NCBI GenBank assembly: GCA_905178155.1 | Contig: CAJINV010000013.1 | Coordinates: forward strand, 2,484,281 to 2,548,280 | Reading direction: 5' to 3' | Length of the DNA: 64,000 bases | Source of the DNA: Amoebophrya sp. A120 | Taxonomy: Eukaryota; Protista; Dinoflagellata | Shown: in pieces, positions 1 to 54,233 of the stretch | Numbering within the stretch: the first letter of the stretch is position 1 | Layout: each line of letters begins with the position of its first letter | Program-made: the position numbers and the translations under genes | Notes under the pieces: generated by a model | The model's database searches: none | What the model saw: the letters and a program-made list of their open reading frames with translations, nothing else | What the model was told of the DNA's origin: nothing

Positions 1-8
1 AGTTCAAA

Positions 9-2569: not shown

Positions 2570-5500
2570 ATGGTCGAAGCGAGGTGGTTCGCCGAGTGGG
2601 CCGTTGCTAAATGGATGCTGCGGAACCGCGAGGCTGTCATCGCCATCCTGAAGGAAATGTTGTCGCAGGAAAAAGGAACCCGCGGGCGGATTGCGCCGGA
2701 CGAGAAGGGCTACCCGTCTCGATATGACGACGGTGAGCCCGTGGAGTTCCTGGATTTATTTCCGCAGCCGCTCGTGCTCACGGAGGAGGGCGAGGTGCTC
2801 GGGATGAGCACCGACGTTTTCAACGCCGACACAGGTCAGATGGTTGCCGCCGAAGCGGATCGCGACGCCACGATGACGGATTTCGAGAACCAGCTCGTCG
2901 TGAGTGCCAATGGCCAAGAACCGCTGCCGGGTTTTCTTTTGCCCCCGGAAGTCGGCGATGCGATGGAAGTCGATCAAGAGGCGGCTCCTGCTGCGCCCGA
3001 AGTTGCTGTTCCGCTGGAGGATGAACTGCTGAGCGAGAACGTTCCGGATCCCAACGATCCGGATCCGATTGCGGCGGAGGAGAATGTGGACCAAGAAATA
3101 CGAAGTGCAAAACTTTACCGCAACACTCCAAATTTGAAAACAGAGAACTAAAATCTCGCATGACAGATTCTTTCACTCCGAACTTCTGTTTTCAAATATC
3201 CGGGTGGCGGTAAAGTGTGCACTTTCATAACTTGAAAACGGCGACAACAACCGTCGCGGGAACGGCCGCCGCACCGACCGCCAGAGAACGCAGGACTTGC
3301 TCGATGCGCTGGAAAATGTCGAGGAGGACACCGCCCAGCACTACTCGAACTGCGTAAAAACCTACCACGACTTCCACAGCATGCACATGTCCGTGACCGG
3401 TGGTGCGCTGCAGGATCCGATCAAGAAGCAGGAACTGAAGGCCACGCACGGCGCAACATTCCCGTGGGCCAATTTGGAGGAAAACCACCACGAATTCTTG
3501 GTCTCCGTGGAAACCCACATGCCGGACTTCCTGCTGCAGGCCATGCGGGACACGGTGGAACACGTCCACGACATCCGGGAATTGTACGCGGTGATCACGA
3601 TGCTGGTGTTCACCATGAGGTATTACCTCTATGTGGCCTTTGATCCGTGCTACAATTTGTGGTATTCGATTGCGTACCGCACCGGATTGTCCGACCAGCA
3701 CATCACCCACGAAGCGGTCCGCGCCGATGTGCTCCGGGAAGAGAAGAACCCGCTGCACCGCCGCAAGCTCAGCGTTTTTGCCAAATACATGCGCAGCTTG
3801 CTCAATAACGATTATGAGCTTGCAGAGGAGGTGCTGAAATTGGTGTGCATCTCCGGCGCAACCGGGGACTTTGAAGGCGAGCGGCACTGGAGGTACGCCA
3901 GTGTCGCACAGAAGATTTTCCGCAACCTCGCCGGCCGGTTCCGTTTGAGCTTCGGCCGCCTCCGCTGGGCCGAAAAGTGTATGAATTTGTACGAGAAGAT
4001 TCCGAGCTTGTGGGGCTCGGAGACCCGCCACTCCCCCGCCCCGGTGTCCCAGATGCGCTCGATGTTGAGTCTCGTGACCAACCCGGTGTCCACGGAGTTG
4101 TTCAAGGATGAAGTTGCCCGGGTTGCGAAAACTTCTCCTCCGCTGCAGGCGCAGTTCAAAGCCCTCGAGGACCTGCGGAACAGCCACCCGCTGCCGGCGC
4201 CGATGCAGGAGATTTGCGACCGGGTCCGCTCTGAGAATATTCGATGAAAAAGCCTCCTTTTCCAAAAATCTGTCATGCAAAATAGTTACATCTTGGATTG
4301 GTACAAAAACCCAGTTCTGCATAGCTAATTCTTGGAAAAGGAGTTTTTAAATCGGCATAATTTCTCTGAGCACCGACATCTCGTGCAGCGCCATCACGTA
4401 TTTCAAGCCGGGCCTGGAGATCGCTGGCCATTTGAAAGCCAGCAGGGTGGAAGACGAAAAGGACATCCCGATCCTCGAAGAATGTGGAAAGCGGGTATGG
4501 GAGTGAATTTCTGGATCACCAAGCACACATTTGTCATGCGTAAATAAAACAGTCTTTTGCAATGCAAAGAAGCAAGAAGTGGTTATTTGTGTGTCTTGGT
4601 TTTCCAGAAATTCACCTGCGTATCTGGTTGATGATTTCCTCCGCCTCCGCCACCGCACCAACAAGCACAAGCCGTTGTGTGCTATCGACGAGGAGGACGG
4701 CACGCAGGGCATGGCCATGTGGTTGGTTTTGGGAATCACGGGGGGATGGTGGTTCGGAGTGTCCATGGCGCGCATGTTGGGCAACCAGTTGGTCTTCATT
4801 TTGGATCCGGATTCGATGCAGCCTGGCTGGGGTTTGACGGCCCACCTCTCCTTCATGGAGATACGAATTGAAAATTTGTGTTGCAGATTGTCAAGCTCCG
4901 TTTCTAGAATGTCCTGCATGAAAACCGAGTTTGTCATGCAAAAATGATATTTCTAGTTGCCTCCGCTGCTGCAACGCAAATTTGTAATGCATACCTCGAC
5001 TACAAGATCTCCTTCTTCCACGGACAGGCGCGGTTCCATTTCGATACTGCGAACTTCGTCGAGTTCAAGGTGGCTTTGATGGAAGCAGTGGGGCACCTGC
5101 CGTCCACCATCTTGAAGGATGTGGTGCGGATCTACACCGGGTTGGAGATCAAAAGCGAGCCCCCGGCGGCTACTCTGCGCGAGATTCTGATGCAGCTGGT
5201 CGACGAGTCTCGTCCGATCGAGGCCTGCAAGGAGCGGGTCCGTCAGCTGCTGGAGGACCGTGCCGTGGAGTTGAGCGGAATCAACGACGAACCGCTGCTG
5301 AAGCGCCGCCGCAAGGAGCGGATGAACAAAAAGGGATCGATTTTGGACTCGATCCCGGAAGCTGCCGGTGACCGCAAGGACCGCACCGAGCTTGGCCGGG
5401 TTATGAATACCTTGCAATGGGCGGTCGTCTGCACCTGTTGCAACGAAGATGTCTTCCTGGTCCGCCGCAGTATCCGCCGCACCGGCAGTGGCGGCGCGAT

Positions 5501-15781: not shown

Positions 15782-18700
15782 ATGTCCGCCGCCTTCAAGC
15801 ACAGCAACATTGACGACGAAAAGGCTACTCTGCTCGAGGAGGGCCAGCTGAGCAACACGGTCTACGACCAGGAGCACCACCATATTGACGGGCACGACAA
15901 TATCACAAGAAAAAGTGTTTACGTTTACGGTTTTCCACCTTTTTTTGGAAAATTTTTTTTTTGTGGCTACTCAGCACTACCAATTTCGATTTTTTTTTTC
16001 TCGCAGCCGCGCAGCGATATCCTTCGCCCTTTCGGGGCTCTGAAGTAGTAAAATTGTCGGGACGCAGCTCGCGCGCAAGATGCGAAGACTATGAAGCGCC
16101 GCCGCAACATTGCGCCCCTTCAAACTTTGAAAGACCTGCCCAAGCCCTGTCCGGGCTCCAGGGCAATGATGGCCGTAAGCAGGTGACCCAGGGCCCCAGG
16201 CATTGGTGACGAGATCCGCCCCCGAAGGCGTCGTAACCATCGACACCGGAGAGGGACCTGCTTGGGTGAGGGGAAATGGATCATAGCGCGCTGTCTAGAG
16301 ATGACGTTTACGGTTTTTTAGGGTAGTGGAGAAATCCGAGGAAAAAAGCATGAACTTGGCACCATTTCGAGGCCAAAAATTGCAAATCCCAGAAAAACCG
16401 TAAACACCTTACCTAGACAGCACGCTATGATCCATTTGCCTCCAATAAAACTGGGGCAAGCACGGAAGCACACTTTTTGGACAGGGAAATCGAGCATAGC
16501 GTGCTGGCTAGAGAGGGCGTTTACGGTTTTTGGGGTCAATTTCATACAAAACAGCAGGTTTTCGGAGGGATGGATCGATCATACCGTCGTGATTAGGTGA
16601 CATGTTTGCGGTTTTTTGGGTGCCGGCAAATTTTGGGCTTTTTGGTGCCCAAAATTTGCCATTTTTGTACATCCTCAAAAATGCGACTTTTTCTCCAGTC
16701 ATGGAGAACATTTGGCTAGAAGTTCCAAAAGGTCCGAGATGGAAGTTAAGAAGGCCGCACAGCGATAAAGTGGTGGCGATGCCATGCAGATGCCAGCTCT
16801 TAGACTCACAAGTCCGTGTCACAGCCACTCCTCGGGGCTGGACCGTCCTGACCCGGGTCCAAGAGCCGACGTTGAGGGACGGGCACAGCATCAGGTGGCT
16901 CCGGTGGGCGACATTCCGCGTCGCCATACCTTGTGCACTGGCTAGATCCAACCCAGTGAGCTACTGCAGAGTCCCGCAATAGCTAACAGAGTCAACGAGT
17001 CAGCTTGAATGTCTAAAAAATGCCCCCAATGCACAGCCAAAAAATTTTTAATCCAAAAAACGACAAACCGTAAACGTAAACGCTTTTTCTTTCGATAGAC
17101 CAGGTCTACGACCAGGAACACCATCATGTTGACGGCCACGACAACGTCATTGTCACGGCCAAATCTTAACGCAGAGGCACCCGGCGCTAAATGTAATCGA
17201 AACGCAATTCAAATGAAATTCAAAAGTTCAGCAATTTCAGTTTTTTCGAGTAGGAGAGTCGTAGTGCTTCTAGGTTTGCAAGTATAATGAGTTGCATCAG
17301 TAGCCCTAGCCCTTACTAGATTCGCAAGCGATTTTCGTGCTCTTTGCGAGCATGCTTCTTTTCGAGTATTCCAGTCACACCGCCGAGCTTTCGCATTCCA
17401 GCTAGATCGCTTATTAGCGCCTCCGCAGCTTGTGTTTGACCATCGGCAACAAGGCCGGCTTTCCTTCTCTGATGGTCTTTTAGCTACGGTCTGCCCTTCC
17501 TCTTGCCTATCTAGTCCTGCGCGCGCCCCTTTATCGTAGTTCTTTACCCTCTCGGCATTTGTACAGGAGGATGAGCTGCGGCCTTTGCACATCTTGATAC
17601 GGTAGCGATATTTGCACGCTGTTTCGCCACCGTGGGCGAGGAACAGGCGATCTTGCAGTGAACAACCCCGCAGGGGAAAGGCCTCTTCTTTCCTCATCTG
17701 ATAGAGATATGCAATATCTGGTCGGCTGTATATCGGCTTCTGACATAGCGATTCTTTTATTGCCTCCTCCGTTTCTGTCGGGAATGCAGCTCCTCTGTTC
17801 TTGTCCTCCAAACGGAATCCAGGCATACGACACAAACGCCCCGACCGGTTTTCGATCGTTTCGGCTAAGTATTTTTTTTTTCGGCAGTGTGCCGCGCCAT
17901 TACGCAGGGGACGGGGTATGTCGCTTGATGGGGCCGGGCCATGCTTTATGGTGGGCCCCGCTGTGTCCGTTCGTGGTGGCGCGCGCGCACCTTTTCTGGT
18001 TTTCCTGCTCTCTTGCCCTGCTTGCCCATCCCGCCTGGGCAGCTGCACGTCGGTGTGTGGAGGGCGATGTGCCCGACGAAGCTCTGCCGGGCGGAGTTCG
18101 TATACTTCTTTTCATTCATTTCGATTTGGTCTGGAACATCAATGCACCAATCAATGCCAGATTGCCTCCGAAAGTTCAAAACTTCAAACTTTTGAAATTC
18201 GTTCGAATTGCGTGCAGATATGAATTAGCGCACGCGTCCTTTGGAGTTAACGGTCTACGACCAGGAGCACCATCATGTTGACGGCCACGACAACGTCATC
18301 GTCACGGCCAAATCCGCAGCTCCTACCTCGGGCGAGGTGAGTGTGGTGACGCGCCGGGAGCGGCGGGAGAGGCACAAGAAGTGGTTCTCTGACAACAGTG
18401 CCATTGTGCTGCTGTACACCATGATGCAACTTTCGTCCTTCGAGTTTCTCGTGGGGGGGTTTCTCACCTTCTTCGGGGTCCAGTTCGCGAACGAAAAAGC
18501 GCATTTCAGCTTTTTCAACAACATCCATTCCGGCTACGACATCCCAGCGGGTCTGCTCATTCCCGTCGGGTTTATCTCCTTGCTGCTGCTCCCAGCCAAG
18601 TACTACCTCATGGTCTACAAGTTCGGGGCCACTTTTTGCTCCTTCCTTACCCTGCTGATCGCCTACGGTCTGCAGCTCGTGTTTCTCGCCGTTTTGCACC

Positions 18701-18966
18701 CGCTGTGGCTGCTGTCCCCGTTGTTTTTCATCGTCGCCCAGTGCCCCAGCCAGGACGTCGCGTTCTCGTTTTTGCTGACAATCATCGTCCTGACGCGGTA
18801 CTGGATGCTGTTCCTGACGATCTACTCCATGTGCAAGGTCACGGGAAACCACGTCCACTACGGCAAGAGCCTGTGGCGCATCGTGCGCAGCGACGGCAAA
18901 AAGGTGGCGTCCGCGATGGAAGGCAAGAAGGAGGAAGTAGAGACGGAACAGATTGTGGAGTACTAA
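15782..18966 (+). CDS. Multi-pass membrane protein with triplicated N-terminal VYDQEHHHxDGHD segment, split by two >1 kb TIR elements
   Basis: Exon 15782-~15900, mini-exon ~17099-17165, exon ~18252-18966 with several hydrophobic helices. Confidence 0.75.
15901..17097. mobile_element. 1197-bp TIR element, TATC...GATA family
   Basis: TATCACAAGAAAAAGTGTTTACGTTTACGGTTT versus inverse TATCGAAAGAAAAAGCGTTTACGTTTACGGTTT; flanks GACAA / GACCA (5 bp, one mismatch). Confidence 0.85.
17166..18250. mobile_element. 1085-bp TIR element with TTAA at both ends
   Basis: ~65-bp imperfect TIR (TTAAC...GCGCTAA...ACGCAATTC...TTTCAAAAGTT); flanked by a 63-bp direct repeat of exon sequence. Confidence 0.8.
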
Positions 18967-20943
18967 TTCGGACGCATTGAGCATGTTGAGGACAACTAAG
19001 GGGACCACTACGACGATAAAGATTTAATTGTACACTTTCATCTTTCTAATTCTACTGACACTGATACTATTCTATTGACATCACAGCGAAGTTCTTCACA
19101 ATTGAGTTTGACAGTTTGAGATTGACACGTCAAAATGGAAGCAGCTTGATGCCACCAGTTGGTTTCTTTACGGCAACAAAACCAAGCGAATCGCAAGACC
19201 TCTATGGCGAATCGCAGGATAGCCTCTAACGAGCCTGAAACGATGATTATCATTCTCGCTACAGTATGCTACTAGGTCGGTAAACTACGCGAGATGATTT
19301 TTTAGATATCCCCTTCGGAAGATTTTTTTTAACAGAAGTGACATCTGACACAACTAAGATCTTTCGGAATAAACGAAGTCTTTAGTTCGAAGCTACACGA
19401 CATGTCAGTTCATAGTTTTTTTCGGGACCACGAGCCAGTGGAGAAGAAAAAATCCTATGATCGAAGGCTACTCCCACTGACTTGTTGGTGCAGTCGACAA
19501 AATTCATGAAAGTCAAGAAAAGGAATACTGTTGCCCTACAACTACCACCTTGGTACACCGGCAACATCAACAACAAAACGAGAACCGAAGGAACTCCAGA
19601 CGGAAACAAGGCTGCTCGTTTTTATAACCGTTTTTCTTCTTTATCAACAAACACAAAGTCGACAACAAATGAACTTGATGAAGCCTTACTCTACTTCGAT
19701 TTTTCACCAGATGGCAACATACAAGTTCAGTTCCGTGGCGTTTGAGCGCGGCTGAGCATCTTGGATAGGATATTATTTTAAGTACACAGCACATTGGTAA
19801 AAATGATCCCCCGGATCATTGTGATTTCTGTTGTTTAGCTGTCGCACGCGCCGCATGGTGATGTTGTTGAAAAAACCGCTCTATTACCTTGAAAATTGAA
19901 AGCAACGCCCCTTTTCGTACCGGCTTTGATGGACATCGGTCGAAGGCGCTTTCGTCTAGTTGAAAGCGCCTCCGATACTGAGCTCTGTCACGACCGGTGC
20001 GAAAATTTTAGACTGGGATAGCAAGACAAAGATCAAACTGTAAGGAGCTCGCCAGGACGAGTTGGCCTTCGGAGGAGCGGCTACTCAGGCGACAATAATT
20101 CGCGATTTCAAAAGTGTTCAACAGTAGACACTGCGCACAGGCTTCTGTTTTGGCTCCGTTCCGACGTGCTGCTTGCCCATTTGTTACCCTAGCATGGTGA
20201 TGGGGTCAATACACTCAAAGCTCACAAAAAATTGTAACACGAGTCGAAGTCCACGTCCAGGACCTGGACGTGAAGCGAAAGCATATGCTTCATTTGAAAA
20301 AGAAACCTTTTGCAATGCCATTTGACGTGCAAGATAAACCTTTCGGATCTTCTTCTTCATCAGGAAGCGCTCGCATACTCGCATAGCGACAGATCTTTTT
20401 CCAGTCTAGGTTTTTCCAGCACGAGGCCCCCACAGTAGAGGAAAGGTGGCATTTTCAGTATGAATAGGTTGGCACTTGATGAAAAGAACCGTAGTTCACG
20501 TTGTGGTAGCTGGCCTTACAGCTCATTTGACGGAAACTACAGAAGATGATCCAAGAAACACGGCAGAGTAGAGCAGCCACGTCGTTTGTAGCCACGAAAG
20601 GAAGATCGCGTCGCCATGGTACTTAGAAGTCATCAATAGTCAGTTTCGAACAAAACATGCCAGTCAAAGTGAGTAGAAGTAGTCGTGACGAAATTATTTG
20701 AAAAAATTATAAAAATCACTAGAACAAGTAATAAGCTACGAGCACGCAAGTTGAAGTTGAACTGCCGATGAGGTTCTTTAGTACTGGGTAGACGTCGAAC
20801 TGATTAGAAAACACCACCAACTTCTCCAGAAGTGCGGAGGTCTTGCAGCTCCCGATAAGTTGTACTTATGTAACTATAGCAACACTGTTAGCTAGTACTT
20901 CGTTCTATCCATCCGGGACCGGGAGGTCGTCCTCGTCGCCCCC

Positions 20944-23061
20944 ATGACGAAAGTCCCGGATTCGCAAGCGGGGTGCAAAGTTGCCGTCCGACTGTTGCCC
21001 CCGGAGCTGGACTCCGAGAGTTTCAAAACGTCCCTAGCCCCGGAGTTCGAGAAGAAAATCAAGTTCTACCGCTTCCAAAACGGGGCCAAGGGGGACAAAA
21101 CGAAAAAGCACGCTACCGTGTTTGCGCAATTTGACACGAAGGAGAGCGCTCGGAAGTTCATACGTACAGAAACTTCTTGATTTTTGTCCACGACACTACA
21201 CCCGGAGCACAATTCACGACTACCGTAGCAAAAAGAAGGGGTGAAAAGATTATAGAATTAATCATAGACACTACGATGAATGTTGACAAAAGCAACTTCT
21301 ATTTCTGTATTTGTATTTTATTGGCTCTGTATGTATCAATAAAACAGGTTCGTATAACGGGCACCTTTTCCAAGTCGAAGAAGGTGGGCAGAAGTATGAA
21401 AGGAGCCCTGACCAAGAGCATCTGTTTTCAGTGAAGAAGTTTCAGTTGCGCACTTCGCAGAAGAACGGGGAACTTATAGTTGCCTCCACCACAGGTTGTA
21501 CACACAAAGATATAAACACCAACTGCTTGCGCAGGTCCAGCTGCTGCTGCGTCTCTCTGCATGAAGAAATAAAGATGTAAAAGGGCGCTGATATTCTCCA
21601 TCATAATTCACGAAAAACAAGATACAATTATTTTCTCCAATCCATACCACGTACGCTGCCGTCGCCACGATGGCACCAAACCAGCGGCCGCACAACTACC
21701 GAGTGCCCCAAATGGAGGAGTGTGCCTTGCAGGAACTGGAAAAAGGCGGCCCACCTGAAAGTACGTCGAAGCCCAGCAGCAAGGGCGGCACGTCCTCCGG
21801 GGGTGGCAGCAGCGGGTCAACAGCTCAACAAACCGACGGCACCTCGAAACCGCCGAAAGTGGGCTGCGAGCAGAGCGGCGTGGACCTGTATCGCAAATTG
21901 GCCTACCTGAAGTCGCGCTACGCCTATGCGAAGTACGCGGGGCTAAAAGACGAAATAGACCCAGAGGGTTTGCACGCGGAGATGGAGCAGACCGCAGAAA
22001 AACTTGCGACGATAGAAAAGCAGCATGGCACACAGGGTAGTACAACTGGTGGCGCCGGAATTTCTTCTTCTCGGAAGGGCAAGGGCAAGAATCGGGGCAA
22101 GCTGCGCGATCAAAACAAGGGAGAACAGCAGGACAGTCCACGAAATATTAGAGACGACACTGCAAATGTTGACAATGACGGCGCGGCTTCCCAGGAAGTC
22201 TACCAACTAGACGGGTTCTTCCAGAAATATGACCCATCCGTGGACGAAAAGCGCATCTTCGAGTCCACACTAGTCGGGAAGTACTTCCGGCTCTGTCAAA
22301 AAGCCATCCAGGCTCAGATTGAAGAGTCGCAGAACAGCGCGAATGCGCTCCCTCCAGGTAAGCTGCCCCCGCCCCCGCCTGGGTTGAAAACGAAAAAACT
22401 GATCGACACGGAAAGGACCGTGGATGTGGAAGAGAAAAACACGCCGCTGCTGGTATCCTGAGTAAAAATATCCCCACACCAGAGTCAAGATGGGAAACCC
22501 GCTAGACAAATCAGCCACCTCTGGTTGTTTCGCATGACAAGTTGTGTCCTCGTAGTGTAATCCTGTTTAGCTAGTTCCGAAGCATGACAGATCTCGCATA
22601 TCATGCTGATTCTAGCATCACAAATTCGCTCACAGGACTACAAAACGGCTCTCATGGGGCTCCGCATGAGAAACTTTTTTGGCATGCAGATTTGCATGAG
22701 AACTCTGGGGAGGGGACATTTTTACTCAGGATAGCTGGCGCAAGTGAAGATCGACAGGAGTCGGTCGCGGAGGGAGAGGGACCGGCAAAGGGGAAACGCG
22801 ACGCGGGGGGGCAAGAAGATCAATCCTTTGGGCGAGATTCTGGAGGATGAGGAATTTGACGACGATGGGAACAACAGCGATGACGCGTTCTATGTGAACA
22901 GTGGCGCGGCCGCGGACCGGAAGGGCATGCAGGACGACGCAGATCTGTTTTCGTCGCGCAGGGACACGGGCCTCGCCACCGGCAGTAAGTCTGCTTCCGG
23001 GAACAAGAAGGAAAAGTCGCGGAATAGAAGAGGGAACAGGAAATCAGGTAAAACTACTTGA
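20944..23061 (+). CDS. UPF3: Nonsense-mediated decay factor UPF3/Smg4-like protein
   Basis: KVAVRLLPP, F..YNGHLF, KYAAVATMAPNQ and the TPLL motif are typical of Smg4/UPF3. Introns 21164-21347 (GT-AG), ~21394-21650 (GT-AC), 22453-22734. Confidence 0.8.
22454..22733. mobile_element. 280-bp introner, TATC family, TSD GCTGG
   Basis: TATCCTGAGTAAAAATATCCCC / GGGGACATTTTTACTCAGGATA; GCTGG at 22449-22453 and 22734-22738. Confidence 0.92.
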
Positions 23062-23242
23062 GATTAATAGACGAAAATGGTAATCGAGGAACAGACTATG
23101 ACTAGGGTCAGGAAAACAGATCAATGAAGGGAACAAGTACTATCGAACCAAATGAAGTACTGTTGTGTTTCACGTTTACAATCACATTTTTTTTCTTCCT
23201 GCAAAAACACAACATCTTGATCCTCCAACAACCCCCACGATC

Positions 23243-24530
23243 ATGGACCCAGGCGACCAGGAGCTCGTTCGTATCACCTGCAACGGTTGCAAGAAGCGCA
23301 AGCGTTGCGTGCAGGACAAGCAGACCGGCAAGTTTTACTGTCGCCGGTGCCGCACGCCCTCCACGACCGGAGGTGGAGGTGGAGCGACCGGAGCAGGCGC
23401 GACTGGCCAGAATATGAAAGCCGAAGCGAGCGCCGCCTCCTCTGCCAAGAAATCCCGCGGCGAGCGGTCGTCCACGGAACGGCGGGAACAGAGACGCGCC
23501 GAGCGGGCAGCCGCGAGGGCGGCTGGAAGTAGGGGTGGCCAGGGAGGTGCTGATGTGGACAGTTACAAGGACGAGCAGAAGAAGGGCTCTTCCTCCTTCG
23601 ATCCACCATCCCGGTCTACCGGCGGCGGAGCCGGAGGATCGTCTTCAAGCACTGGCTATGTATTGCAAAAGCAGATCGTCCAAGTAGCAGTTGCATTTAG
23701 AAGTACATCAAATTAATACAGATTTGCTCAGCATGATGTTCTTGACAACTTCCATTTGTCATGGTGGATTGCCTCAGAAACCAGTAGTTTTGTCATTATG
23801 CATAAATCGCAACCACTACTAGTACGATGCGACCTTTGCACAGGATACCGGCGGAGGCGGAAATGGACCAGGGAGCACGGACGCGGTACAAGATCTACTA
23901 TTGATCTGTTTTTCTTTGTCATGCAGGGATTCGCATAATGATAGATAAAGATAATCACAAACTTTGTCTATGCATAAACGAGATTTTATCCCACCAACGA
24001 AATAACAGTCCGACCGCCGACTCCGGGACCAGCTGCGAGATAGCAAACCGGCCCCGATCGTGCACATGCCCGGCGGAGCTTCACCACCGGCAGCTGCAAG
24101 CAGCAAGCCATTGAAATCTTCCCGTGTAGGAGCTGTTGACCACGACGAGTCGTATCCAGACAATTCAGGAACTACAACTCGCGGCGCTGCTACTGCAGAT
24201 AAAAACTCGTCGAACACGTGGACCAAAGCTGCAAGCACTAGTACAACTTCCGCGAAACAAGAAAAGAGCGGAACTAGTACAAGCGGTGGCAATTCATCCA
24301 CCTCGGAGCAGAAGTGTTCGGGCTGTGGGTCCTACAAGAAGAAAGTAGAAAAGGGGTACTGCATATCCAGGAAAAAACACCCATCCCCATCCATTTTTTG
24401 CATGGCAAATAGTGGACTTTATGCATGTTTTGCATCACAAATTGGATGGGGATGGGTGTTTTTTCCTGGATACTGCAACGACTGCTGGGACAAATGGAGC
24501 AGCTGGAAAAAGGATAAGAGGAAGCGCTAA
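23243..24530 (+). CDS. Low-complexity protein with N- and C-terminal C4 zinc-finger-like motifs
   Basis: CNGC...CRRC and CSGC...CNDC; GT-AG introns 23660-23822 and 23886-24008; introner at 24364. Confidence 0.75.
24364..24472. mobile_element. 109-bp introner, TATC family, TSD CTGCA
   Basis: Perfect 30-bp TIR TATCCAGGAAAAAACACCCATCCCCATCCA; CTGCA at 24359-24363 and 24473-24477; interrupts YCNDC. Confidence 0.93.
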
Positions 24531-25287
24531 ATTGGTATGGAAATAATCACTATCACGCCACGAACAAGCGACGCAGCACTTTTCAAGACACTGTATTGCC
24601 AGGAATGCGACGAAACCGTTGTAACCTGATTATACCAGCGAAGGAGCGATGAACATCACCAACAAGCGAAATTTTGGCACTCAGCGAACGATGTGAATGA
24701 ATCACATCGAAGATCCTGGCTCACCTTCACTGTAGATACATCTATCTTCAGATGATGATGTGCCATCGCGCTCGAAGCCTCGCTCGACGTCATCCACGCG
24801 AAACGAGGTCCTCCTGCATTGCTTAGTAAGCTTCAAGATAGCGCGTGAAACCTCACACTTAATTGGCCGCCAGATTATGGCAAAGAAAGTAGCCTCAGCC
24901 TTCGTGTGTTCTTGTCTCGATATTGGCGCATTGATATGGGTATTGGAATTCGATTCCAAACCAGAAGTGGAACGAGTGCTGGAACACAGCACTCACATCA
25001 TTCGGTGAACACCAGTCGGATTGCTGTCTTCGTGCAAGCACGTTTTTTTTTTTTCGAGTGGAACAAAGAGAGAAATGTAGGATGTTGATGTGCAAAGGAA
25101 GTTCTATCATGGCCTCACAGCTTCAAGACCACTAATCGGAAATCTTTGAAAGAGTACAAGACTTTTGCTTTAATAGTCCACGACCGACGTGCATGTGTCG
25201 GGTATGGCTTGTTACAACTTCGTGTGAAGAAGAAGCTAGCTATTATTTGATGTAAACAATATTTTCTTCTAATAAGACGGACCAAAA

Positions 25288-28200
25288 ATGGTAGACGTCC
25301 ACGGCACATCCTCGCCCTCGCTCGCGGTCCCAGAAGAGGAGAAACGGATTCCCGACATCACGATAGCCACGATTGGAAATGTAGACTCGGGAAAGTCGAC
25401 GTTGGTCGGGGTTCTTACGAAGTCAATCTTGGACGATGGCAGAGGTATTTTTATGCAGTTTTTCTTGCAAAACAAAAACATAAACAAGGAAAACAATAAA
25501 GGGGCGACTTGCTTAGTTACTGTGAAGTACAAGCACGCCACTACCCATGTTGAAGAACACAAGGAAATACTTCTGTAAAAACGACCATCTCCGTCAAGAT
25601 CATTTATATGGAGACGGTCTATTTCTCCCTGTCAGCATCTTTCTTTTGCACTTTGATTTTGCAAAAACTGGTCTACAACTGCAGGCCTGGCGCGTTCCAA
25701 AGTGTTCAATTTCGGACACGAGCAGGAAAATGGGCGCACGAGCAGCATCGCCCACGAGATCATGGGATTTCACACGTTGCTGGAAAAGGAGCAACTGCCG
25801 GCGGGAGGACCAGGACAAGCACAACAACCTCGTTCGTCAAACACAACAAAAAAGGAGTCTTCTTCAAGTGTGCAGCAGATGATGAAAACTACAGGAAACA
25901 ACTCCTCTTCAAGTACTACATCCCCGGGCGGAGACGAGGATCAGAGCACTGCCGCCTCGTCCTCTCGGAGTAATCAGCCGGAAAGCTGTGCAGGTGGAGG
26001 TGGAAGTTCTTCTAGCAGTTCAGCAGGGCCTACAACTGGTAACAGTAGCACAGGGACGACCTCCGCTACATCTTCCTCGTCATCAGCCGGCGCGTCAAAT
26101 AAGCCGGACCACCAGGATGATTTTCAGTCCTGCGGCGAAGACGAAAATAGTAACGAAAACAATGAAAAACTCAAGGATCATCCGGGATCGTCGAAAAAAC
26201 TGTCTCCTGCAAATAATATGAACAATGGCAAAGCCTTTTCGCCGGCAGCAAGATCAGACAAAGACAGCGGAGGGGGGACCACGACAACAGCAAAGTCGGG
26301 AAGTTCATCTTCTGCGCCGTCGGCCGCCACGACGCCGCCTACGACCACGAACGCGGCAAATAAGAGCCCCCCAGCGAGTTCTGTGTCCACCGCAACCGCG
26401 TCGACTGCCGCCGCCTCTAACTCCCCCAATTCGACGGCCAAGAAGCTGTTCCAGGTGGTCACTGTCGACTCGGAGCACCACGGAAAGAGGGGTGAGAAAC
26501 AGCAGGACCATCAGCATAACCACGACGAGAATTATTCTGCCGCGAATAATTATGTCGCCACGACCGAGCGAAAGAGCCACGTCGTGCCCCGCGGGTCGGC
26601 GTCGCACCCAATCAAAACTGGGGCGCAGAAAAACGCGCTGTGGCAGAAGATTCAGGAGCAGAGCGACCGGCTAATTCAGTTTGTGGACCTGTGCGGGCAC
26701 GAGAAGTACCTGAAAACCACAATATTTGGATTGGTCGGGCTGTGTCCCGACTACGCTATCGTCGTGGTCAACGCAAACGCGGGGTTGCAGAGGATGACCC
26801 GCGAGCACATTGGTATATTTTATTGACTGGGAGTTGCTCTTCATCATCTATTGGACATGTTCAGTATACCTCAAATTAAATTTTTGCCTATTACGGCTCC
26901 TGGTCGACGTGGAAGAAAAATTATCCAATGACACAATCAGAAACCAAACCATCAATCATGTTCGTGCACTGACTTGAAACACAAGCCAAAGCATAAGCAT
27001 CTTCTTGACGACAAGAGCCCAGCACTTGAAATACAAATATTTCTCAACGCCAGGCATCGCCATTGCCCTTCGTATTCCCATCATCATTGTGGTGACGAAA
27101 AAGGACATGACGCCCGGGAACGTCTACGACGCCAACATGCTAAACATCTGCAAAGTGCTATCAAAAGAAAAAATCCCCCCTCCCCATATCGAAAACGAAA
27201 CTTGTGATGCTGTATGTGAGTACACAAGTCGACTTGTAATGCTAGAAGGCCAGGAGCCGCAGTTGTGGCCTCGTTTGCAGGCAATTTGTCATGCTGCTTC
27301 CCACTTCCAGTTGCCTGCTTTCATGCTGAAGATGCAAGGCTTTCCCACGCCTGCCAGGAGTACAGTCCGCATCTTTTCCCTTCTAGCATGACAAAGCTGA
27401 TTTGTGGCCACAAATCTGCATCACAGATCTCCGGTTTGATATGGGGAGGGGGGATTTTTCTTCTTGATAAGTGCTCAAATCCAACGCGGTTCGGAAACTG
27501 CCCGTGCTGATCAAGCACGAAACGGACGTGGAGCACGCGGCCAGCAGCATTCTCAGCGAGCGGATTGTGCCCGTCTTTTCGGTCAGTTCGGTCACCGGCG
27601 ACGGGCTGGATTTCCTCCGGTCCTTCCTGTACAATCTGCAGCCCCGTGCGAAGGAATTGCTCTGCAAAAGCCCGTATCCCACGCAAAAGTATCGCGCTCC
27701 TAGTTAATCTCTTATTGCAATTATGCGCGACAATTTGAATTACTTAGATACAAACAAACTTGAAAATTTGTAAAAAGATGAAATTTCTACCAGTACGTAC
27801 CAGTCCCAGTGCGATACTTTGTTTTGCAATGGATAGCTTGGAAGACAAGCAGGTGGAGTTTCACATCGAATCAATCTTCCTAGTCGCCGGCGTCGGGGTC
27901 GTGGTGGCCGGATTCATGCGATCGGGTATAATATTTTGGGATTTTCCTTCCTTTTAATTTTTCCTCCTCTGGATTCCGTTTCCGATGCATCTTGGCTCCT
28001 GCAGGTTGTTTCTGTTTGTGCAATAAAGTTCAGCTTGCGGATAATTTAAGACACAACTCGTAGACGATCCACTGATAATAAGTCTAAGAACAAACCAACC
28101 GATCTGTCGGCACAAATAAATCCAACGGCAGGCACGGTGACAGTCGGATCGCACCTGTACCTTGGCCCGGATTCGCTGGGGAAGTACAAGCACCTGATTG

Positions 28201-29465
28201 TTCGCGGTATCCACATCCGGCGCGTGCCGAAATCCAAAGCGTTGTCGGGGGACCACTGCTCGTTTTCCCTCCGTGCCATCGACGCGAAAGAGAAGTTTAA
28301 GAAGTCGCATTTTCGAATATGGAAGTGAACAATGTGGTCTCAAGACGACTGGTCTTCGTTTTGTTCTTTGCCACCCAAAATCCTAGCAGGTGGAGTGAGG
28401 CAAAAGTATGTTCTTAATGACAGATGACATGCTGCCCGCATACGCAATTTTTCGCCCTGTCAAGTGAGTACTTCCCCGACATTGTATGTTGACACAGGAT
28501 TACAAAAGGAAAACTGAGACCACAACGTTGCTGGCGTTCCATACCACAAGGGCATGGTCCTCCTGAGCCAAATTAACACGGAGCCGGTGGCGTTTCGCGA
28601 GTTTGAAGCGGAAATCGTCATCCTGCACCACAGCACCACGATAAGGCAAAGGTAGACTCAAGTAGATATACATGGTGGATGACGAGTATTGAAGTAGTTC
28701 AGTCTAACTCTAACTCTATCTTTCGCAATGCACAACCTCGACGAAAGTGCACAACTACGACAGTGCTATCTATCTTCGCGGTGGTGCGCCAACATCTTTA
28801 GCAATGCGCTGTCTTCGTGATGTTGCGCCATGCGCAACCACGACAGTGCGCGATTCTTTACGTGCTAGTTGATGGGTGCTAGTCTGGTGCACGAAAAGGC
28901 GGCGGAATACAAACGAAACTCTGTCAGGTACCAAGCCGTAATCCATTGCGGCGTGATCCGGCAATCGGCCGAGGTGCTGGGCATGAGCAGCGAGCTACTG
29001 CGTACCGGCGACAAAGCCACCGTGCGGTTTCGGTTTCTGTATCACGTGGAGTTCATGCGCGTGGGTTGGACCCTGCTCTTCCGTGAGGGCCGCACGAAGG
29101 GGATAGGAAGGGTCACGAAGGTTCTGATTGGCGGCAACAACACGGTGTCTGGGCCCACAGCTCCGCGCTCGCCCACGACGCACGGCAGTGCGTCTTCTGC
29201 GGGTGCCAGTACTGTTGCAGTCGGGAGCAACTTGCCGCCGCCCGCGGGAGGTACTAGCAGTAGTACCACTGCCGGCGCAGTCGGTGGAGGAAGCGAGCCT
29301 GCAAGCTCCTCTACACGAGTTGACAATCCTGCGTCGACTTCCACTTCCTCGGACGCAGGAGCTGCAAGTGCGAGTGCACCCACTAGTGCGACCGGGAGTA
29401 GCACTTTCGCAGAGCGAAAAAGCAACCGAACGTCAGCGGCAGCACAGCAGGCTATCACAGCATGA
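25288..29465 (+). CDS. GTP-binding protein 1/2 family (EF-Tu-like translational GTPase)
   Basis: [62 protein letters not shown]. Introns 25445-25684, 26813-27053, ~27158-27470, 27674-27836, 27926-28131, 28317-28547, 28652-28927. Confidence 0.95.
27159..27469. mobile_element. 311-bp fold-back introner, TATC family, TSD AGTGC
   Basis: Arms >100 bp starting TATCAAAAGAAAAAATCCCCCCTCCCCATATC; AGTGC at 27154-27158 and 27470-27474; interrupts ICKVLKSN; no in-frame GT-AG at the ends. Confidence 0.93.
27675..27835. mobile_element. 161-bp older introner, TATC family, now a GT-AG intron
   Basis: TATCCCACGCAAAAGTATCGCGCT versus inverse TATCCATTGCAAAACAAAGTATCGCACT; flanks GCCCG / GCTTG; intron 27674-27836 in frame. 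Confidence 0.75.
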
Positions 29466-30639: not shown

Positions 30640-31830
30640 AAAAAAATGTTGCGCGCTGCGCGCCCGCAGACGCCCTGATCTGCTTCGGTAGCTGCGGGCC
30701 GGAGCGAAAAACTTTTTTCGCGCGCTGCGCGCGCAGGCTCCATGACCTAGTGTTGGCGCCACGTTCATAGTCTTTTTTTCGCGTCCAGCAGTCGGGGCCT
30801 GGCCGAGCAAATTAGTTCGCGCGCTGCGCGCGCAGGCGCCCTGACCTGGTACGGGCGCGATAGAGTTTTTTTTTCACGTCCACCAATCGGGACTGGCCGA
30901 AAAATGCAATTTTTAGCGTGCGCCCTGCGCGCGCAGGCGCCCGGACCTGTTGAGGGCGCGACATTTAGTTTTTTTTTCGCGTCCAGCGATCGGGGGCTGG
31001 CCGAAAAAAATTTGTCGCTTGCTGCGCGCGCAGGTGCCCTGACCTCGTGAGGGCGCGACGGAATTTGCTTCACGCATCCACCAATCGGGGGCTGGCCGAG
31101 AAAATTTTTAGCGACCTGCGCGCGCAGGCGGTCTGGCCCGGTTTGGGCGCAACATTTACAATTTTTTTTGGCGCCCAGCAATCGGGGGCTGGTCGAAAAA
31201 AAAACTATCGCGCGCTGCGCGCACAGGCGCCCTGGCCTGGTGACTCCGCCAATTTTTTTGTCGCGTCGTCCCAGCAATCAGGGCCTGGCAGAGAAAAGAT
31301 TTTAGCGCCCTGCGCGCGCAGGCGCCCTGACCTGGTGAGGGCGCGACATTCGTGTGTTTTTTTTGCGCGTCCAGCAGTCGAGGGCTGGCCCAAAAAAATT
31401 CTTCGCGCGCTGCGCGCGCCGTCGCCCTGATCTGGTGAGGGCGCGATGGGTTTTTTTTACGTGCCCACCAATCGGGGCTGGCCGAAAAAAAATTCACCAC
31501 CCTGCGCGCGCGCGTGCCCTGACCTGATCGGGGCGCGACGTTCATAGTTTTGTTCTGTGTCCAGCAGTCGGTGGCTGGCCGAAAAAAAATTATTCGCGCG
31601 CTCGTTGCGCGCGCAGGCGCCCTGACCTGGTGGGGGTGCGACAGATTTTTTTTTACGCGCCCGCTCGTCGGGGTCTTGCCGCCGGGAAAATTTATTCGCG
31701 CGCCGCGCGCGCAGGCCCCCGAACCTGGTGGGGGCGCGACGCAATTTTTTTTGCTTCCAGGTGTCGCGGGTTGGCCGAGGAAAAAGCGATCGCGCGTTGC
31801 GTGCGCGCAGGCGCCTTGGCCTTGGAGCGG
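30640..31830. repeat. Degenerate tandem repeat, ~97-bp unit, about 12-13 copies
   Basis: GCGCGCAGGCGCCCTGACCTG core recurs near 30828, 30929, 31025, 31120, 31217, 31314, 31609, 31706, 31803, with alternating T and A runs. Confidence 0.85.
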
Positions 31831-39000: not shown

Positions 39001-39228
39001 GACATTCCGAGAAAAAGTGATGGCGTTCGTGAGCCTCCAAAGTTGACGCTCTGCAGAATCTTCAGAAAGCACGTGTTTTGAGGTCAAAAAATCCAAAATC
39101 TTCAAGATTTTGAGCTCAAATCCTGAAGATTTTGGATTTTTCAGTGAAAGCGAGGCCGTTTTCTGAAGAATCTTCAGAGCGGCGACTTTCGACACTCACG
39201 GAAGTCATCAACTTTTCACAGATTTCGA
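39001..39228. repeat. ~230-bp imperfect spacerless palindrome
   Basis: Centre GAG|CTC at 39114/39115; AAAAATCCAAAATCTTCA / TGAAGATTTTGGATTTTT; outer GCTCTGCAGAATCTTCAGAAA / TTTCTGAAGAATCTTCAGAGC. Confidence 0.88.
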
Positions 39229-48340: not shown

Positions 48341-48454
48341 CTCCTATTGCTGAGCTGCGCGAGTTCAAACTTTGCGACGAGGAGGAAAATCGTCCACGCC
48401 GAAATTTTTTTGCCCGTTTTCAAACTTTCAAAAGCTGTCGCGATTTGCGAAATC

Positions 48455-49350: not shown

Positions 49351-49389
49351 CAATCTGCCGAGACCCTGCCTCCCCGGTTTTGCAGCATA

Positions 49390-51650: not shown

Positions 51651-54233
51651 TTAGCTACACTGCGGGGACAATAAAACTGCAGATGCATGCAGGTCGGTCT
51701 CGATGTTGACATGACCAAGAGAGATGACATATTTGCACTCGCATAGATTTTCCCTCTCCTCCGGTTGTTGCAGCTGTTGTTTCCGTTCTTCCTTTCCAAA
51801 CCGAATCGCTTCCGGAGTCGGCGGACGGCCGTAAAAGAGCACGAATTCGTACCAGAAAGATTCCAGGTCCAGGATGTCGTTGTGTGACGCGGCAGGAGCG
51901 GCGTAGAAACTTGGACTAGTATAATTTTGAGTACTAGTGCCACTATTTATTTTACCGCTACCTTTACTACTTTTCGCGGTGGTCGTCCCTGCCGTAGTAG
52001 AAGTTCCTGTCTCGTCCGGAAGATCATGTCGATACCCGGCTCCTCCATTCATCGTCCCACCCAAAAGATGTTCCGCAAATTTTCGGTGCACTTCCCGGCC
52101 GTGCTCGATGGGACAGATTTCGTCCTGCGCGCCGTGAATCATGTGGATTTTTGTTCTTCCACCCTCACCCAACTGCGCAGTTCTTTTCTTTTTTTCTTCC
52201 TGATCCTGAAAACGCTCCAACTTCGCAAACAGCTCCTCCACCGCTTTCACGTTGTCCCACCGCTGCTCCGGCGGCACCGCAAAGTCCAGCACGAATTTTG
52301 GGACAGACTCGAGCTGTGGGAGCAATCTCTGTGCCATGTCCCGCACACTCGTGAACGGGGCCGAGAGGATCAGTGTGTCGAACTGACGGGAGGTCTTCGT
52401 CTTTCTCTTCTTCGCTGCTTCATCATTATCTTCGCCGGCCGCCGCAGTGGCTTGTTTTGCCAAATAATCCAGCAACGCCGCGCACCCGATGCTGTGCCCC
52501 AAGCCGTTGAACTGCAACTGCGCGACCGGTTCTGGGTCGCGCTCTTCCACGAGCTGCTCGAACCGGTTCAGGATTTCCACTATGCATGGCAAAAAGTTGT
52601 ACTACCGTACTAGTACTAGTTGCATCACAATGTTTTTTTCACAAGGAGAAATCGAAATGGAATTTGTCATGCTAACTCAGATCTACCATTACGTTACCAA
52701 GCCGATTTGTCGTGCATGACTGCGTTCTTTAGAAGTACGAGTACGATATACTTTTCTTCGCTGCGAGCGGATATCCACCGTGGACTGGTAAATGTTGTCC
52801 CGGTTCGGTTTGTATCCTGTGCAAAAGTATCGCATTCGTATAAATGCAAGTCTTGCATTTACAAATCTTTGTCTTCAGGCAAATCTGCATTACAAGCTGT
52901 CTGAGAAGTTACAAGCTGTCTGAGAACTGAGAAAGCACTTGCGCGAGAAAAAGAAGGCTGTACTGAACGAACAGGACGAGTTGTGAACGGGCCAAAGAGA
53001 CAATTGAGTCAAGCCCAGACAGGAAGAAGAAAGAAAGAAAGAAAGAAATCTGCATTACAAATTTTATTTCTCATGCTGAGGAAAGTTGTAATGCATTTAT
53101 ACGAATACGATACTTTAACTTTTGCAGTGCATAGTTTGTGCAGCGCCTCCGGATCGATTTCTTTTTCCTTCTCCGGTTCTACGTAGGTGCTGCCGTACCC
53201 CGGGTAGTCGGCAAAAATGAAGGCCGGCTTCTGGCGCGGCGTCGCCAGGTCCGGGAGGAGATCGGAGTAGTCCTTTTTCGCCCGTTCATCCGACGTTCGG
53301 CTCGTCCACTGAATCGCCGAAGAAAGCCACTCGAGCGCCACCATGCCGTTTCCGCCATACACCAACCAAACCTGTCGGATTGGCACTCCCGTAGTGCTAC
53401 TTGGGGGCCGCGAGGATGACACTGACGGGGAAGGAGCGGCGGCAGCAGAAGTAGTTTCTGATGCGGTTTGATGTTCATCTTCCGGAGCGTCCTTCACGGG
53501 AGGTCTGAAGTCGCGCTGGAAAAAATCAGTCGGGGCAAAGAGGAAAAATTTGCGGTGAGTGATTCTCTGTGCGCTGGGGTATGCATATTTTCCAAAAGTA
53601 GTTGTACCTCGTCAGCATGCGAAGCCGAAAGAGCTGAATCTGCGCAAGATCAAAATGATAAGTACTAGTACTGTGTCAACAATAAAATGCAAAGCGTCGC
53701 GCAGTGTTGTTGCGTTAAAAAAAAAAAGAATGCGCATCTACTGCGAAATCGTGTCGGGAAGGGAGCAAGGATCGGCGGTACAACAAAGGTGAGGGGAATG
53801 GCATGTCGATGCATGTTGAGACGCATGCAATACTAGGAATGTACTTCTGCGATAATCGGACAAATTGGTACCCTGATACCGATACCCGCCCGGCAGCTTA
53901 CAGTACGCATCCGATGAATGGCACAACAACTTTTGCAGAGGGTATATTACCGCCCCCGGATTGGGATTGCGCTGCTATTGGCACGGAGATTTCTTCCAAC
54001 TTGTAGTCGTTCCAGGTGACGTTGAGTAAGGGGGCGTAGCTGTTTTTTCCGTACGGCCTTGGGTAGTACATCAAGGACTCGATCAGTCGGCGCGGAATGT
54101 AGCGCAACACGAAGTACGAGGAGGCGGCCAGGGCGGCCACCGTGAAGGCGGTGGTCTTGCGGCCTGGAAGCCGGCTAGTGAAAGAACTACTCATGGTGAA
54201 GAAGCTGGAGGTGGAGCCGGGCTCGGGGGGCAT
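51651..54233 (-). CDS. Alpha/beta hydrolase, ABHD13/ABHD12-like
   Basis: N-terminal hydrophobic helix, LMYYP, YGGNG, DYPGYG, mini-exon GYKPNRDNIYQS (~52760-52823), GHSIG, SAPFTS, IHGAQDEICP, ASHND. 3' end approximate. Confidence 0.88.
52820..53126 (-). mobile_element. Non-canonical IR-bounded intron in the hydrolase gene
   Basis: Arms AAAGTATCG(C/T)ATTCGTATAAATGCA; TGCAC direct repeat; removing 308 nt gives KLCT|GYKP. A second IR-bounded intron lies at about 52588-52765. Confidence 0.72.

What the first reader, a model, noticed from the sequence alone, without database searches (positions are those of the whole stretch)
22449..27840. TATC...GATA introner family with 5-bp TSD and a possible fixed N|TATC...GATA|N splice rule adding one codon
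Seen: five exon-interrupting elements (15901, 22454, 24364, 27159, 27675; a sixth TATCC-ended one at 21) of 109-1197 bp share TATC/GATA ends and 5-bp flanking duplications. Cutting one base outside each TIR keeps frame in all five and adds exactly 3 nt, giving GT-AG (22453-22734, 27674-27836), AT-AC (24363-24473), AT-AG (15900-17098) and CT-AA (27158-27470). The diverged TSD pairs (GCCCG/GCTTG, GACAA/GACCA) fit both copies being partly coding. Known: IR/DR-bounded non-canonical introns are described in Amoebophrya. Inference: splice sites are set by the hairpin rather than by terminal dinucleotides, and GNNNG targets convert the element into a canonical intron.
Basis: partly seen in the sequence, partly recalled or inferred. 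Interest (0 to 1): 0.8.

Follow-up and report, generated by a model that had tools for sequence, protein, structure and literature searches.

The report
Transposon introns leave no extra codon
These are the already published hairpin-ended transposon introns of the marine parasite Amoebophrya A120; transcript assemblies lack each element plus exactly five flanking bases, so the proposed extra codon is absent, and the cut skips usable GT-AG ends at a position likely set by the paired element ends.

Summary
The five elements are real (TATC...GATA ends, 5-bp target duplications), and the host is Amoebophrya sp. A120: two spliced genes match named A120 proteins at 829 of 829 and 298 of 298 residues. 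The proposed +3-nt rule is refuted. RNA-like contigs skip element+5 nt at all five elements and at two more found here (7 of 7), giving TPLLAQ, YCNDC, KVLKS, SPEDK and HDKVY. Orthologs have no extra residue at the 3 sites tested. Where the duplication copies differ, the 5' copy is kept (4 of 4 elements); three of these pin the cut to -1/+4 or 0/+5 around the element. Two elements offer an in-frame GT-AG pair, which the assembled transcripts do not use. The class is published (Farhat 2021, borders called variable or unknown); -1/+4 appears in 3 of 58 A120 rows of a 2025 supplementary table, and this scan reported the same register on other pieces of this genome (8 notes seen). A TTAA-ended element at 17166-18250 is removed with +1 nt, so the spacing is class-specific. 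The splicing machine is inferred, not shown.

The parts
15901..17097 (+). TATC...GATA element, 1197 nt; flanks 15896-15900 GACAA and 17098-17102 GACCA; intron 15900-17101 or 15901-17102
   Evidence: joint 15899->17102, skip 1202, 1 ambiguous base, run X3 only, depth 196.6, side 47; HDKVY in named protein P0005; another copy ends at 17097 (X1 record 2)
22454..22733 (+). TATC...GATA element, 280 nt; perfect flanks GCTGG (22449-22453, 22734-22738); unused in-frame GT-AG pair 22453-22734
   Evidence: joint 22448->22734, skip 285, in X1, X2, X4, not in X5; TPLLAQ; GT-AG list
   Evidence: joint 23653->23850, skip 196, in X1, X2, X4; keeps the 5' copy's T
24364..24472 (+). TATC...GATA element, 109 nt, 30-nt perfect arms; perfect flanks CTGCA (24359-24363, 24473-24477)
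   Evidence: joint 24356->24471, skip 114, in X1, X2, X4; YCNDC; 11 further 109-nt copies L001-L011
27159..27469 (+). TATC...GATA element, 311 nt; perfect flanks AGTGC (27154-27158, 27470-27474)
   Evidence: joint 27152->27469, skip 316, in X1-X4; KVLKS in A120 protein and orthologs
27675..27835 (+). degenerate TATC...GATA element, 161 nt; flanks GCCCG/GCTTG; intron 27674-27839 or 27675-27840; unused in-frame GT-AG pair 27674-27836
   Evidence: joint 27673->27840, skip 166, 1 ambiguous base, in X1-X4; SPEDK, no extra residue in orthologs
   Evidence: joint 28316->28548, skip 231, 1 ambiguous base, in X1-X4; HFRKGM in A120 protein and 3 orthologs
17166..18250 (+). different long inverted-repeat element with TTAA ends, 1085 nt, removed with 1 extra base; exception to the +5 spacing
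   Evidence: joint 17164->18251, skip 1086, X3 only, depth 174.1, side 29; arms align over 64 columns; AKSVY in P0005
   Evidence: arm score 54; fold z -7.7
3099..3229 (+). candidate old element (TAC...ATA), flanks AGAAA/ACTTG; fifth flank base differs, so it can decide the register; splicing not tested
   Evidence: read; arms; frame open across it
4238..4359 (+). candidate old element, flanks GAGAA/ATTTC (0 of 5); can decide the register; splicing not tested
   Evidence: arm score 32; frame open across it; fold z -5.5
52813..53133 (.). TAT...ATA element, 321 nt, perfect flanks GTTTG; splicing not tested
   Evidence: arm score 42; related sequence in L006, L010, L011
15782..18966 (+). host gene 1, 298 aa, no Pfam family; holds elements 15901 and 17166
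   Evidence: spliced product identical to P0005, named Amoebophrya sp. A120
21670..24530 (+). host gene 2 (645 aa open from this ATG; the transcript extends upstream of 21651); holds elements 22454, 23657, 24364 and two GT-AG introns
   Evidence: open frame after joining RNA-defined exons; loose end before 21651
25288..29451 (+). host gene 3, EF-Tu-type GTP-binding protein (continues past 29451); holds elements 27159, 27675, 28318 and four GT-AG introns
   Evidence: 829 of 829 residues identical to P0001, named A120; PF00009 E 3.4e-25

Best explanation
These are short inverted-repeat transposon copies (TAT...ATA ends, 5-base target duplication) in Amoebophrya A120 genes that are missing from transcript contigs together with exactly five flanking bases, so no codon is added, and the cut is likely placed by the paired element ends on a relaxed spliceosome rather than by GT-AG. 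Shown: skip = element+5 (7 of 7); the 5' duplication copy stays in the mRNA and bases 1-4 of the 3' copy leave with the element (4 of 4 informative elements); the cut is -1/+4 or 0/+5 (pinned in 3, compatible in 4); in-frame GT-AG pairs are passed over (2 of 2). Predicted by folding: the terminal TAT pairs with ATA even in old, weakly folding copies. Inferred: the register is -1/+4 (about 80%), so the intron reads N-TAT...ATA-NNNN and its start mimics the local GTAT donor with the first base relaxed; the terminal stem acts as a ruler for the 3' site; catalysis is spliceosomal. Because one base of the 5' copy plus four of the 3' copy equal one duplication, any exonic insertion in any target would be silent, which would explain how these elements spread through coding sequence.
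For: Six junctions in 3 of 3 RNA-like runs and 0 of 1 DNA-like run; the seventh in X3. The same contigs skip 11 GT-AG introns, and bin 24904-25139 has depth 0 in X1, X2, X4 but 50 in X5. All 7 differing flank positions follow the 5' copy; a cut free to fall anywhere in the duplication would do so with p about 0.025. Orthologs from A25, AT5.2 and Ameob2 have no extra residue at 27159, 27675 or 28318. For -1: 6 of 11 GT-AG introns here start GTAT and 10 of 11 GTA; all nine top A120 non-canonical pairs in Farhat Table S4 start NT; fam56, fam74 and fam160 of Gozashti Dataset S2 list -1/+4 with a 5-bp duplication; Polarella class 12 uses this geometry with NNAGG targets. Old elements 23657, 27675, 28318 fold no better than shuffles (z -0.7 to -1.2) yet keep TAT:ATA pairing at P 0.78-1.0. 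Target is free: 11 of 11 other copies have different flanks, 8 perfect at 5 bp.
Against: All RNA-like runs are one sample, are contigs (rare isoforms are dropped, strand is not shown) and are only guessed to be RNA; the named A120 proteins may rest on the same RNA data. The fifth flank base is the same on both sides in all 7 spliced elements, so -1/+4 and 0/+5 cannot be told apart here. The TTAA-ended element 17166-18250 is removed with +1 nt, so +4 is not a general property of every hairpin. In three large published A120 families 65-69% of annotated 3' ends read AN, while only 1 of 7 does here under -1/+4; I explain this by placement of ambiguous junctions, which I did not test. Farhat reports no U1 snRNA and calls the sites variable; 55 of 58 Dataset S2 rows list other offsets. 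Nothing here tests which machine cuts.
Confidence: 0.62

Rival explanations
1. Same fixed cut, but made by a second, non-spliceosomal route that reads the terminal stem (as proposed for Euglena nonconventional introns) and releases a linear or circular element.
For: No dinucleotide is shared at the 3' end under either register; GT-AG pairs are skipped; U1 was not found in A120; Euglena uses fixed spacers of 3 and 5-6 nt around a short paired motif and its authors suggest non-spliceosomal factors; a second end type (TTAA) is also removed.
Against: N-TAT matches the local GTAT donor; A120 keeps U2, U4, U5, U6 and nearly all spliceosomal proteins, and 15% of its canonical introns have the same repeat layout; both intron kinds alternate in the same transcripts.
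Confidence: 0.27
2. The joined forms are artefacts: reverse transcriptase jumps the hairpin between the two direct repeats, or the RNA sample carries element-free alleles; both give element+5.
For: Hairpin plus short direct repeat is the known trigger of template switching (established knowledge); the DNA-like run is a different sample from the RNA-like runs; no raw reads were informative (6 and 4 reads laid).
Against: 28318 has only 2 of 5 matching flank bases and a weak fold (z -1.1) yet is removed at the same offset; 4 of 4 informative elements keep the 5' copy; skips of 316 and 166 nt are not multiples of 3, so retention would break a conserved GTPase; listed exon pieces of the RNA-like contigs have 0 differences from the window and X5 contigs run from flank into element.
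Confidence: 0.05
3. A divergent minor (U12-type) machinery recognises the element start, since the -1 register gives RTATCC in three elements.
For: 22453, 24363 and 27674 start GTATCC, ATATCC and GTATCC, like the U12-type donor RTATCCTT (recalled); 28317-28547 reads AT-AC; transposon-like U12 introns exist in Physarum (passage).
Against: Four of seven do not fit (ATATCA, CTATCA, CTATGT, ATATGG); 3' ends are CC, TG, GG, GC, TG, TT, AC; Farhat found no U11, U12, U4atac or U6atac.
Confidence: 0.04
4. One reading: cuts one base outside each end (N|TATC...GATA|N), adding one codon per element.
For: It keeps frame in all cases; two elements would give GT-AG; published top A120 pairs are mostly NT-AN, the pattern this rule predicts.
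Against: 0 of 7 junctions fit; named proteins and orthologs lack the extra residue; the rule needs about 100% NT and AN, whereas three large families show 68-71% and 65-69%.
Confidence: 0.02

Closest known systems
Introner elements / non-canonical introns of Amoebophrya sp. A120 (Farhat et al. 2021, PMC7789003; seen: abstract, sections 10 and 16, passages of 11 and 32, supplement part 3 and figure legends, not the figures)
   Same: Same strain; inverted repeats starting TAT, 3-5-nt direct repeats at the exon border, non-GT-AG ends, MITE-like, many families and singletons.
   Different: [quoted passage not shown] Figures S19-S23, which I could not see, may show part of this.
A120 introner families in Gozashti et al. 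2025 (PMC12130899; seen: passages, SI part 1 of 2, all 58 A120 rows of Dataset S2; files 13 and 14 not searched)
   Same: TIR DNA elements that co-opt both splice sites; fam56, fam74, fam160 list -1/+4 with a 5-bp duplication; fam38 is noted as 5-bp TSD with TA/TA termini.
   Different: The other 55 rows give other offsets from automated calls; no general register is stated in what I read. I did not assign window elements to these families.
Polarella glacialis introner-like class 12 (Roy et al., bioRxiv 10.1101/2020.10.14.339549; seen: passages)
   Same: 5-nt duplication; in NNAGG targets the last base of the 5' copy starts the intron and the 3' site lies in the 3' copy, which is the -1/+4 geometry.
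   Different: It needs AG and G from the target; the A120 elements take any target.
Euglena nonconventional introns (Nomura et al. 2025, PMC12501133; seen: abstract, sections 8 and 12)
   Same: No terminal dinucleotide rule; short paired end motifs; fixed asymmetric spacers, longer on the 3' side; MITE origin proposed.
   Different: Motif CAG/CTG with spacers 3 and 5-6, shown by knock-in; here TAT/ATA with 1 and 4 (or 0 and 5), inferred from natural mismatches; unrelated lineage.
Fritillaria borealis noncanonical introns (seen only as passages of the review PMC11282704)
   Same: MITE-derived introns with inverted repeats and duplications, said to be removed by an adapted spliceosome.
   Different: Preferred AG-AC and AG-AT ends; no such preference here.

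Membership tests
Amoebophrya A120 introner elements (Farhat 2021) | lies in the A120 genome | tested here: met
   spliced window genes equal named A120 proteins P0001 (829 of 829 compared) and P0005 (298 of 298)
Amoebophrya A120 introner elements (Farhat 2021) | 8-20-nt inverted repeats at the two ends | tested here: met
   arms; degenerate in 23657, 27675, 28318
Amoebophrya A120 introner elements (Farhat 2021) | repeat starts TAT, seven loose bases, then at least three A | tested here: met
   6 of 7 left arms; 28318 has only two A (read)
Amoebophrya A120 introner elements (Farhat 2021) | 3-5-nt direct repeat overlapping the exon border | tested here: met
   5-nt flanks match 5, 5, 5, 4, 4, 3 and 2 of 5; cut falls within or at the edge of them
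Amoebophrya A120 introner elements (Farhat 2021) | removed from RNA with non-GT-AG ends | tested here: met
   7 of 7 in RNA-like contigs; contigs, one sample
Amoebophrya A120 introner elements (Farhat 2021) | repeated elsewhere in the genome | tested here: inconclusive
   yes for 24364 (11 copies in another assembly), 22454 and 27159 (summed depth over 11000 against about 43, loose ends at the element edges) and 15901; no sign for 23657, 27675, 28318 at 97% likeness
MITE (non-autonomous TIR DNA transposon) | terminal inverted repeats and a target duplication of fixed length | tested here: met
   8 of 11 further copies have perfect 5-bp duplications of different sequence, 3 are diverged
MITE (non-autonomous TIR DNA transposon) | no transposase inside | tested here: inconclusive
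   six spliced elements are 109-311 nt; ORFs inside 15901-17097 are at most 150 aa and were not scanned against families
MITE (non-autonomous TIR DNA transposon) | autonomous partner with the same ends | not testable with these tools
   no genome is held
Canonical U2-type intron | GT (or GC/GA)...AG ends | tested here: not met
   no allowed register gives GT-AG, GC-AG or GA-AG in any of 7
Canonical U2-type intron | lariat with branch-point A, U2/U6 dependence | not testable with these tools
   needs lariat reads or inhibition
U12-type intron | RTATCCTT donor and AT-AC or GT-AG ends (consensus recalled) | tested here: not met
   RTATCC in 3 of 7 but none of those ends AC or AG; the one AT-AC case starts ATATGG
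Euglena-type nonconventional intron | N3-CDG...CHG-N5-6 signature | tested here: not met
   ends are TAT/ATA with 1 and 4 (or 0 and 5) spacer bases (signature)
Self-splicing or other curated RNA family | match to an Rfam model | tested here: not met
   0 matches at gathering score in 15700-28700

The most novel reading that the evidence does not exclude
A120 has a splicing route that ignores both terminal dinucleotides and measures from a three-pair TAT:ATA stem (-1/+4), so strongly that it passes over a perfect in-frame GT-AG; the 1+4 spacing equals the 5-bp duplication, so the host machine makes any insertion of these transposons silent. A second element class (TTAA ends, 17166-18250) is read with its own spacing (+1 nt), and such elements sit at junctions of in-frame exon duplications (42 and 63 nt), which would make introners a source of protein repeats.
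Probability: 0.35. Interest if true: 0.75.

Novelty: already known. Interest (0 to 1): 0.45.

Why it matters
The element class is published for this very strain, and the surprising claim in the finding (one codon added per insertion) is wrong. What remains useful is a precise, testable description of how more than 60% of this parasite's introns might be removed without GT-AG and without a detectable U1, a question Farhat et al. left open. The window adds natural controls: two in-frame GT-AG decoys that are skipped, old copies that lost overall folding but keep the terminal pairs, three unspliced-as-yet-tested elements whose fifth flank base can settle -1/+4 against 0/+5, and one element with other ends and another spacing. 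I did not find the fixed register stated as a rule in six searches of the paper library, though it stands in 3 of 58 rows of a supplementary table.

Tried and rejected
No whole genome is held, so no genome-wide scan. One search showed 15 of 24 joints; one search recovered those in 21600-28660 only. Joint 27195->27396 (24 other letters between, side 21) is taken as another copy of the 27159 family; X5 joints 22735->24363 and 24473->27159 (side 24) as matches between element ends; neither was counted. A paralog inside the window as the source of the joined forms: no junction word is present in the window on either strand. Register test by an annotated protein of the gene at 1-5780 failed: no hit for exon 149-328, best representative 33% identical; relatives from A25 and AT5.2 are too distant to tell T from N or E from K (P0013, an unrelated GTPase, entered that alignment by my filter and was ignored), and the frame is open under all three registers. 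The idea that the fifth flank base must match on both sides (7 of 7 spliced elements) is not supported: too few cases, and it differs in 21-143, 3099, 4238 and L008. Pattern scans of viral contigs and genome contigs gave 0. Rfam gave 0. The first census at a low threshold was swamped by noise and was redone with shuffles. P0004 was dropped from two of three junction comparisons because it misaligns there.

Full report
Observation. With the tandem repeat at 48401-49400 masked, the window has 6 TAT...ATA pairs with arm score >=20 and flank match >=4 of 5, against a mean of 0.1 (maximum 1) in 20 shuffles. 27675 is weak by sequence alone and is carried by RNA. The sixth element spans 21-143 with flanks that match at 2 of 5. 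The elements are not one sequence family: 12 window elements gave no pairwise blastn hit at E<=1e-3. They share the end motif.

Organism. No genome is held. An exon of the gene at 25288 found a protein named Amoebophrya sp. A120; joining the RNA-defined exons gives 829 of 829 identical residues over the part compared. The gene at 15782 gives a 298-residue protein identical to another named A120 protein. The first is an EF-Tu-type GTP-binding protein (PF00009).

RNA test. Eleven runs were listed, none on record as RNA holders. Contig sets X1-X4 behave as RNA: they skip 11 GT-AG introns and X1, X2, X4 have depth 0 in bin 24904-25139, where X5 has 50. They are one sample. X5 behaves as DNA, with contigs running from flank into element and none of the splice joints. 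Six junctions stand in 3 of 3 RNA-like runs; the 15901 junction stands in X3 only, X1 not covering that gene. The peptides are HDKVY, TPLLAQ, YCNDC, KVLKS, SPEDK and HFRKGM, not HDNQVY, TPLLLAQ, YCCNDC, KVVLKS or SPLEDK. Proteins from A25, AT5.2 and Ameob2 have no extra residue at the three GTPase sites, so the RNA form is the ancestral length. The +3 rule is refuted as the main form; contigs cannot exclude a rare isoform.

Where the cut lies. In four elements the two flank copies differ, at 7 positions in all, and the RNA follows the 5' copy at every one; a cut free to fall anywhere in the duplication would do this with p about 0.025. Three elements differ at position 4 and leave only two registers, -1/+4 and 0/+5; the other four allow these among others. 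At 15901 the 5' copy is also the likely ancestral one, because it completes a 42-nt tandem duplication of exon sequence (38 of 42 identical). The fifth flank base matches on both sides in all seven, so the last base is open. I favour -1/+4 by inference: 6 of 11 GT-AG introns here start GTAT and 10 of 11 GTA, while the -1 starts read ATAT, GTAT or CTAT; the nine top A120 non-canonical pairs in Farhat's Table S4 all start NT; three families in Gozashti's Dataset S2 (fam56, fam74, fam160; 3 of 58 A120 rows) list exactly this offset with a 5-bp duplication. A test set down beforehand on elements 3099 and 4238 failed for want of an annotated protein.

GT-AG decoys. At 22454 and 27675 the G before TAT and the AG formed by the last A and the next G give an in-frame GT-AG intron three bases shorter. 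The assembled transcripts do not use it. So a GNNNG target does not make a canonical intron; under -1/+4 the target that would is NNAGG, the pattern described for Polarella class 12.

Mobility and age. A 29-nt arm of 24364 found 11 copies in a metagenome-collection assembly; all are 109 nt, at 11 different targets, 8 with perfect 5-bp duplications, 0 in GNNNG. In X5 the summed depth rises from about 43 to 11061, 6572 and 17014 in bins holding 22454, 24364 and 27159, but stays at 46-51 over 23657, 27675 and 28318 (not a copy number). The first three have perfect flanks and strong folds (z -6.8 to -10.9); the last three have diverged flanks and folds like shuffles (z -0.7 to -1.2), yet their terminal TAT:ATA pairs are still predicted at P 0.78-1.0. 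I read this as young and old insertions, with the outer stem kept after the rest decays; two untested candidates (3099, 52813) do not show that end pairing.

An exception. Joint 17164->18251 (X3 only, depth 174.1, side 29) removes a 1085-nt element with TTAA ends and arms that align over 64 columns, plus one base. It restores the frame and is in P0005. The +4 spacing is therefore tied to the TAT...ATA class. This element lies at the junction of a 63-nt exon duplication (61 of 63 identical), as 15901 lies at that of a 42-nt one; I cannot explain this.

Mechanism. Most likely: a non-autonomous TIR transposon inserts with a 5-bp duplication (shown by flanks; the transposase is unknown); in the pre-mRNA the arms pair (predicted); the 5' cut falls one base before the stem at N-UAU, close to the local GUAU donor, and the 3' cut four bases after it (offset shown to within one base); 1+4 equals the duplication, so the exon is restored (shown). 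That a relaxed spliceosome does this is inferred from the donor likeness and from the retained U2, U4, U5, U6 and proteins in A120. A separate stem-reading route as proposed for Euglena is the main rival. Template switching gives the same length but fits poorly with 28318 (2 of 5 flank match, weak fold) and with the constant choice of the 5' copy. Against my reading: published 3' ends in three large families are 65-69% AN, only 1 of 7 here; placement of ambiguous junctions could explain it but was not tested.

What is known. Farhat et al. 2021 describe these elements in this strain, with TAT starts, 3-5-nt direct repeats and no U1, and call the sites relative to the hairpin variable and the border unknown; I could not see their figures S19-S23, which may bear on the offset. 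Six library searches gave no paper stating a fixed A120 register; passages of two reviews (PMC11282704; PMC11453091) repeat Farhat, and passages of a third (PMC12787238) add nothing on it. This scan has reported the same -1/+4 offset on other pieces of this genome (8 notes seen; unreviewed, not counted as support); my offsets were noted before those look-ups.

Verdict. Observation partly confirmed, +3 rule refuted, class already known. The fixed offset, the skipped decoys and the TTAA exception sharpen an open question. Interest 0.45.

Noticed in passing
window 15859-18314: Three in-frame copies of one exon segment (42, 63, 63 nt) with a long inverted-repeat element exactly at each junction (15901-17097 and 17166-18250); the protein carries the repeat VYDQEHH three times.
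   Followed up: partly
window 17136-17678: An X3 contig (543 nt, depth 9.3) runs unspliced from the exon into the TTAA element, where an in-frame TAA follows; a retained or short form may exist beside the spliced one.
   Followed up: no
window 16271-16531: Internal inverted and direct repeats of about 50 nt inside the 1197-nt element, possibly nested ends.
   Followed up: no
window 1-5780: Intron-rich gene of an Amoebophrya-specific family (7 relatives at 23-33%, five named A25 or AT5.2), no Pfam hit for exon 3234-4235, no A120 protein returned; holds several old elements.
   Followed up: partly
window 11797-28927: 8 of 11 GT-AG introns are followed by an exon starting with G, and donors are mostly GTAT.
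   Followed up: partly
L001-L011: The 1.2-kb loci around the 24364-family copies hold further TAT...ATA elements of other families, several with perfect 5-bp flanks (L001 290-551, L005 48-330, L009 83-460, L011 119-267 and 321-532).
   Followed up: partly
window 48500-49400: Array of about 17-nt AT-rich units in both orientations.
   Followed up: no
window 30700-31900, 55340-56060, 56790-57630: GC-rich repeat arrays, among them palindromic units spaced about 114 nt apart at 55368-55990.
   Followed up: no
window 39006-39222, 47759-48076, 60444-60600: Further inverted-repeat stretches that may be elements with other or decayed ends.
   Followed up: no
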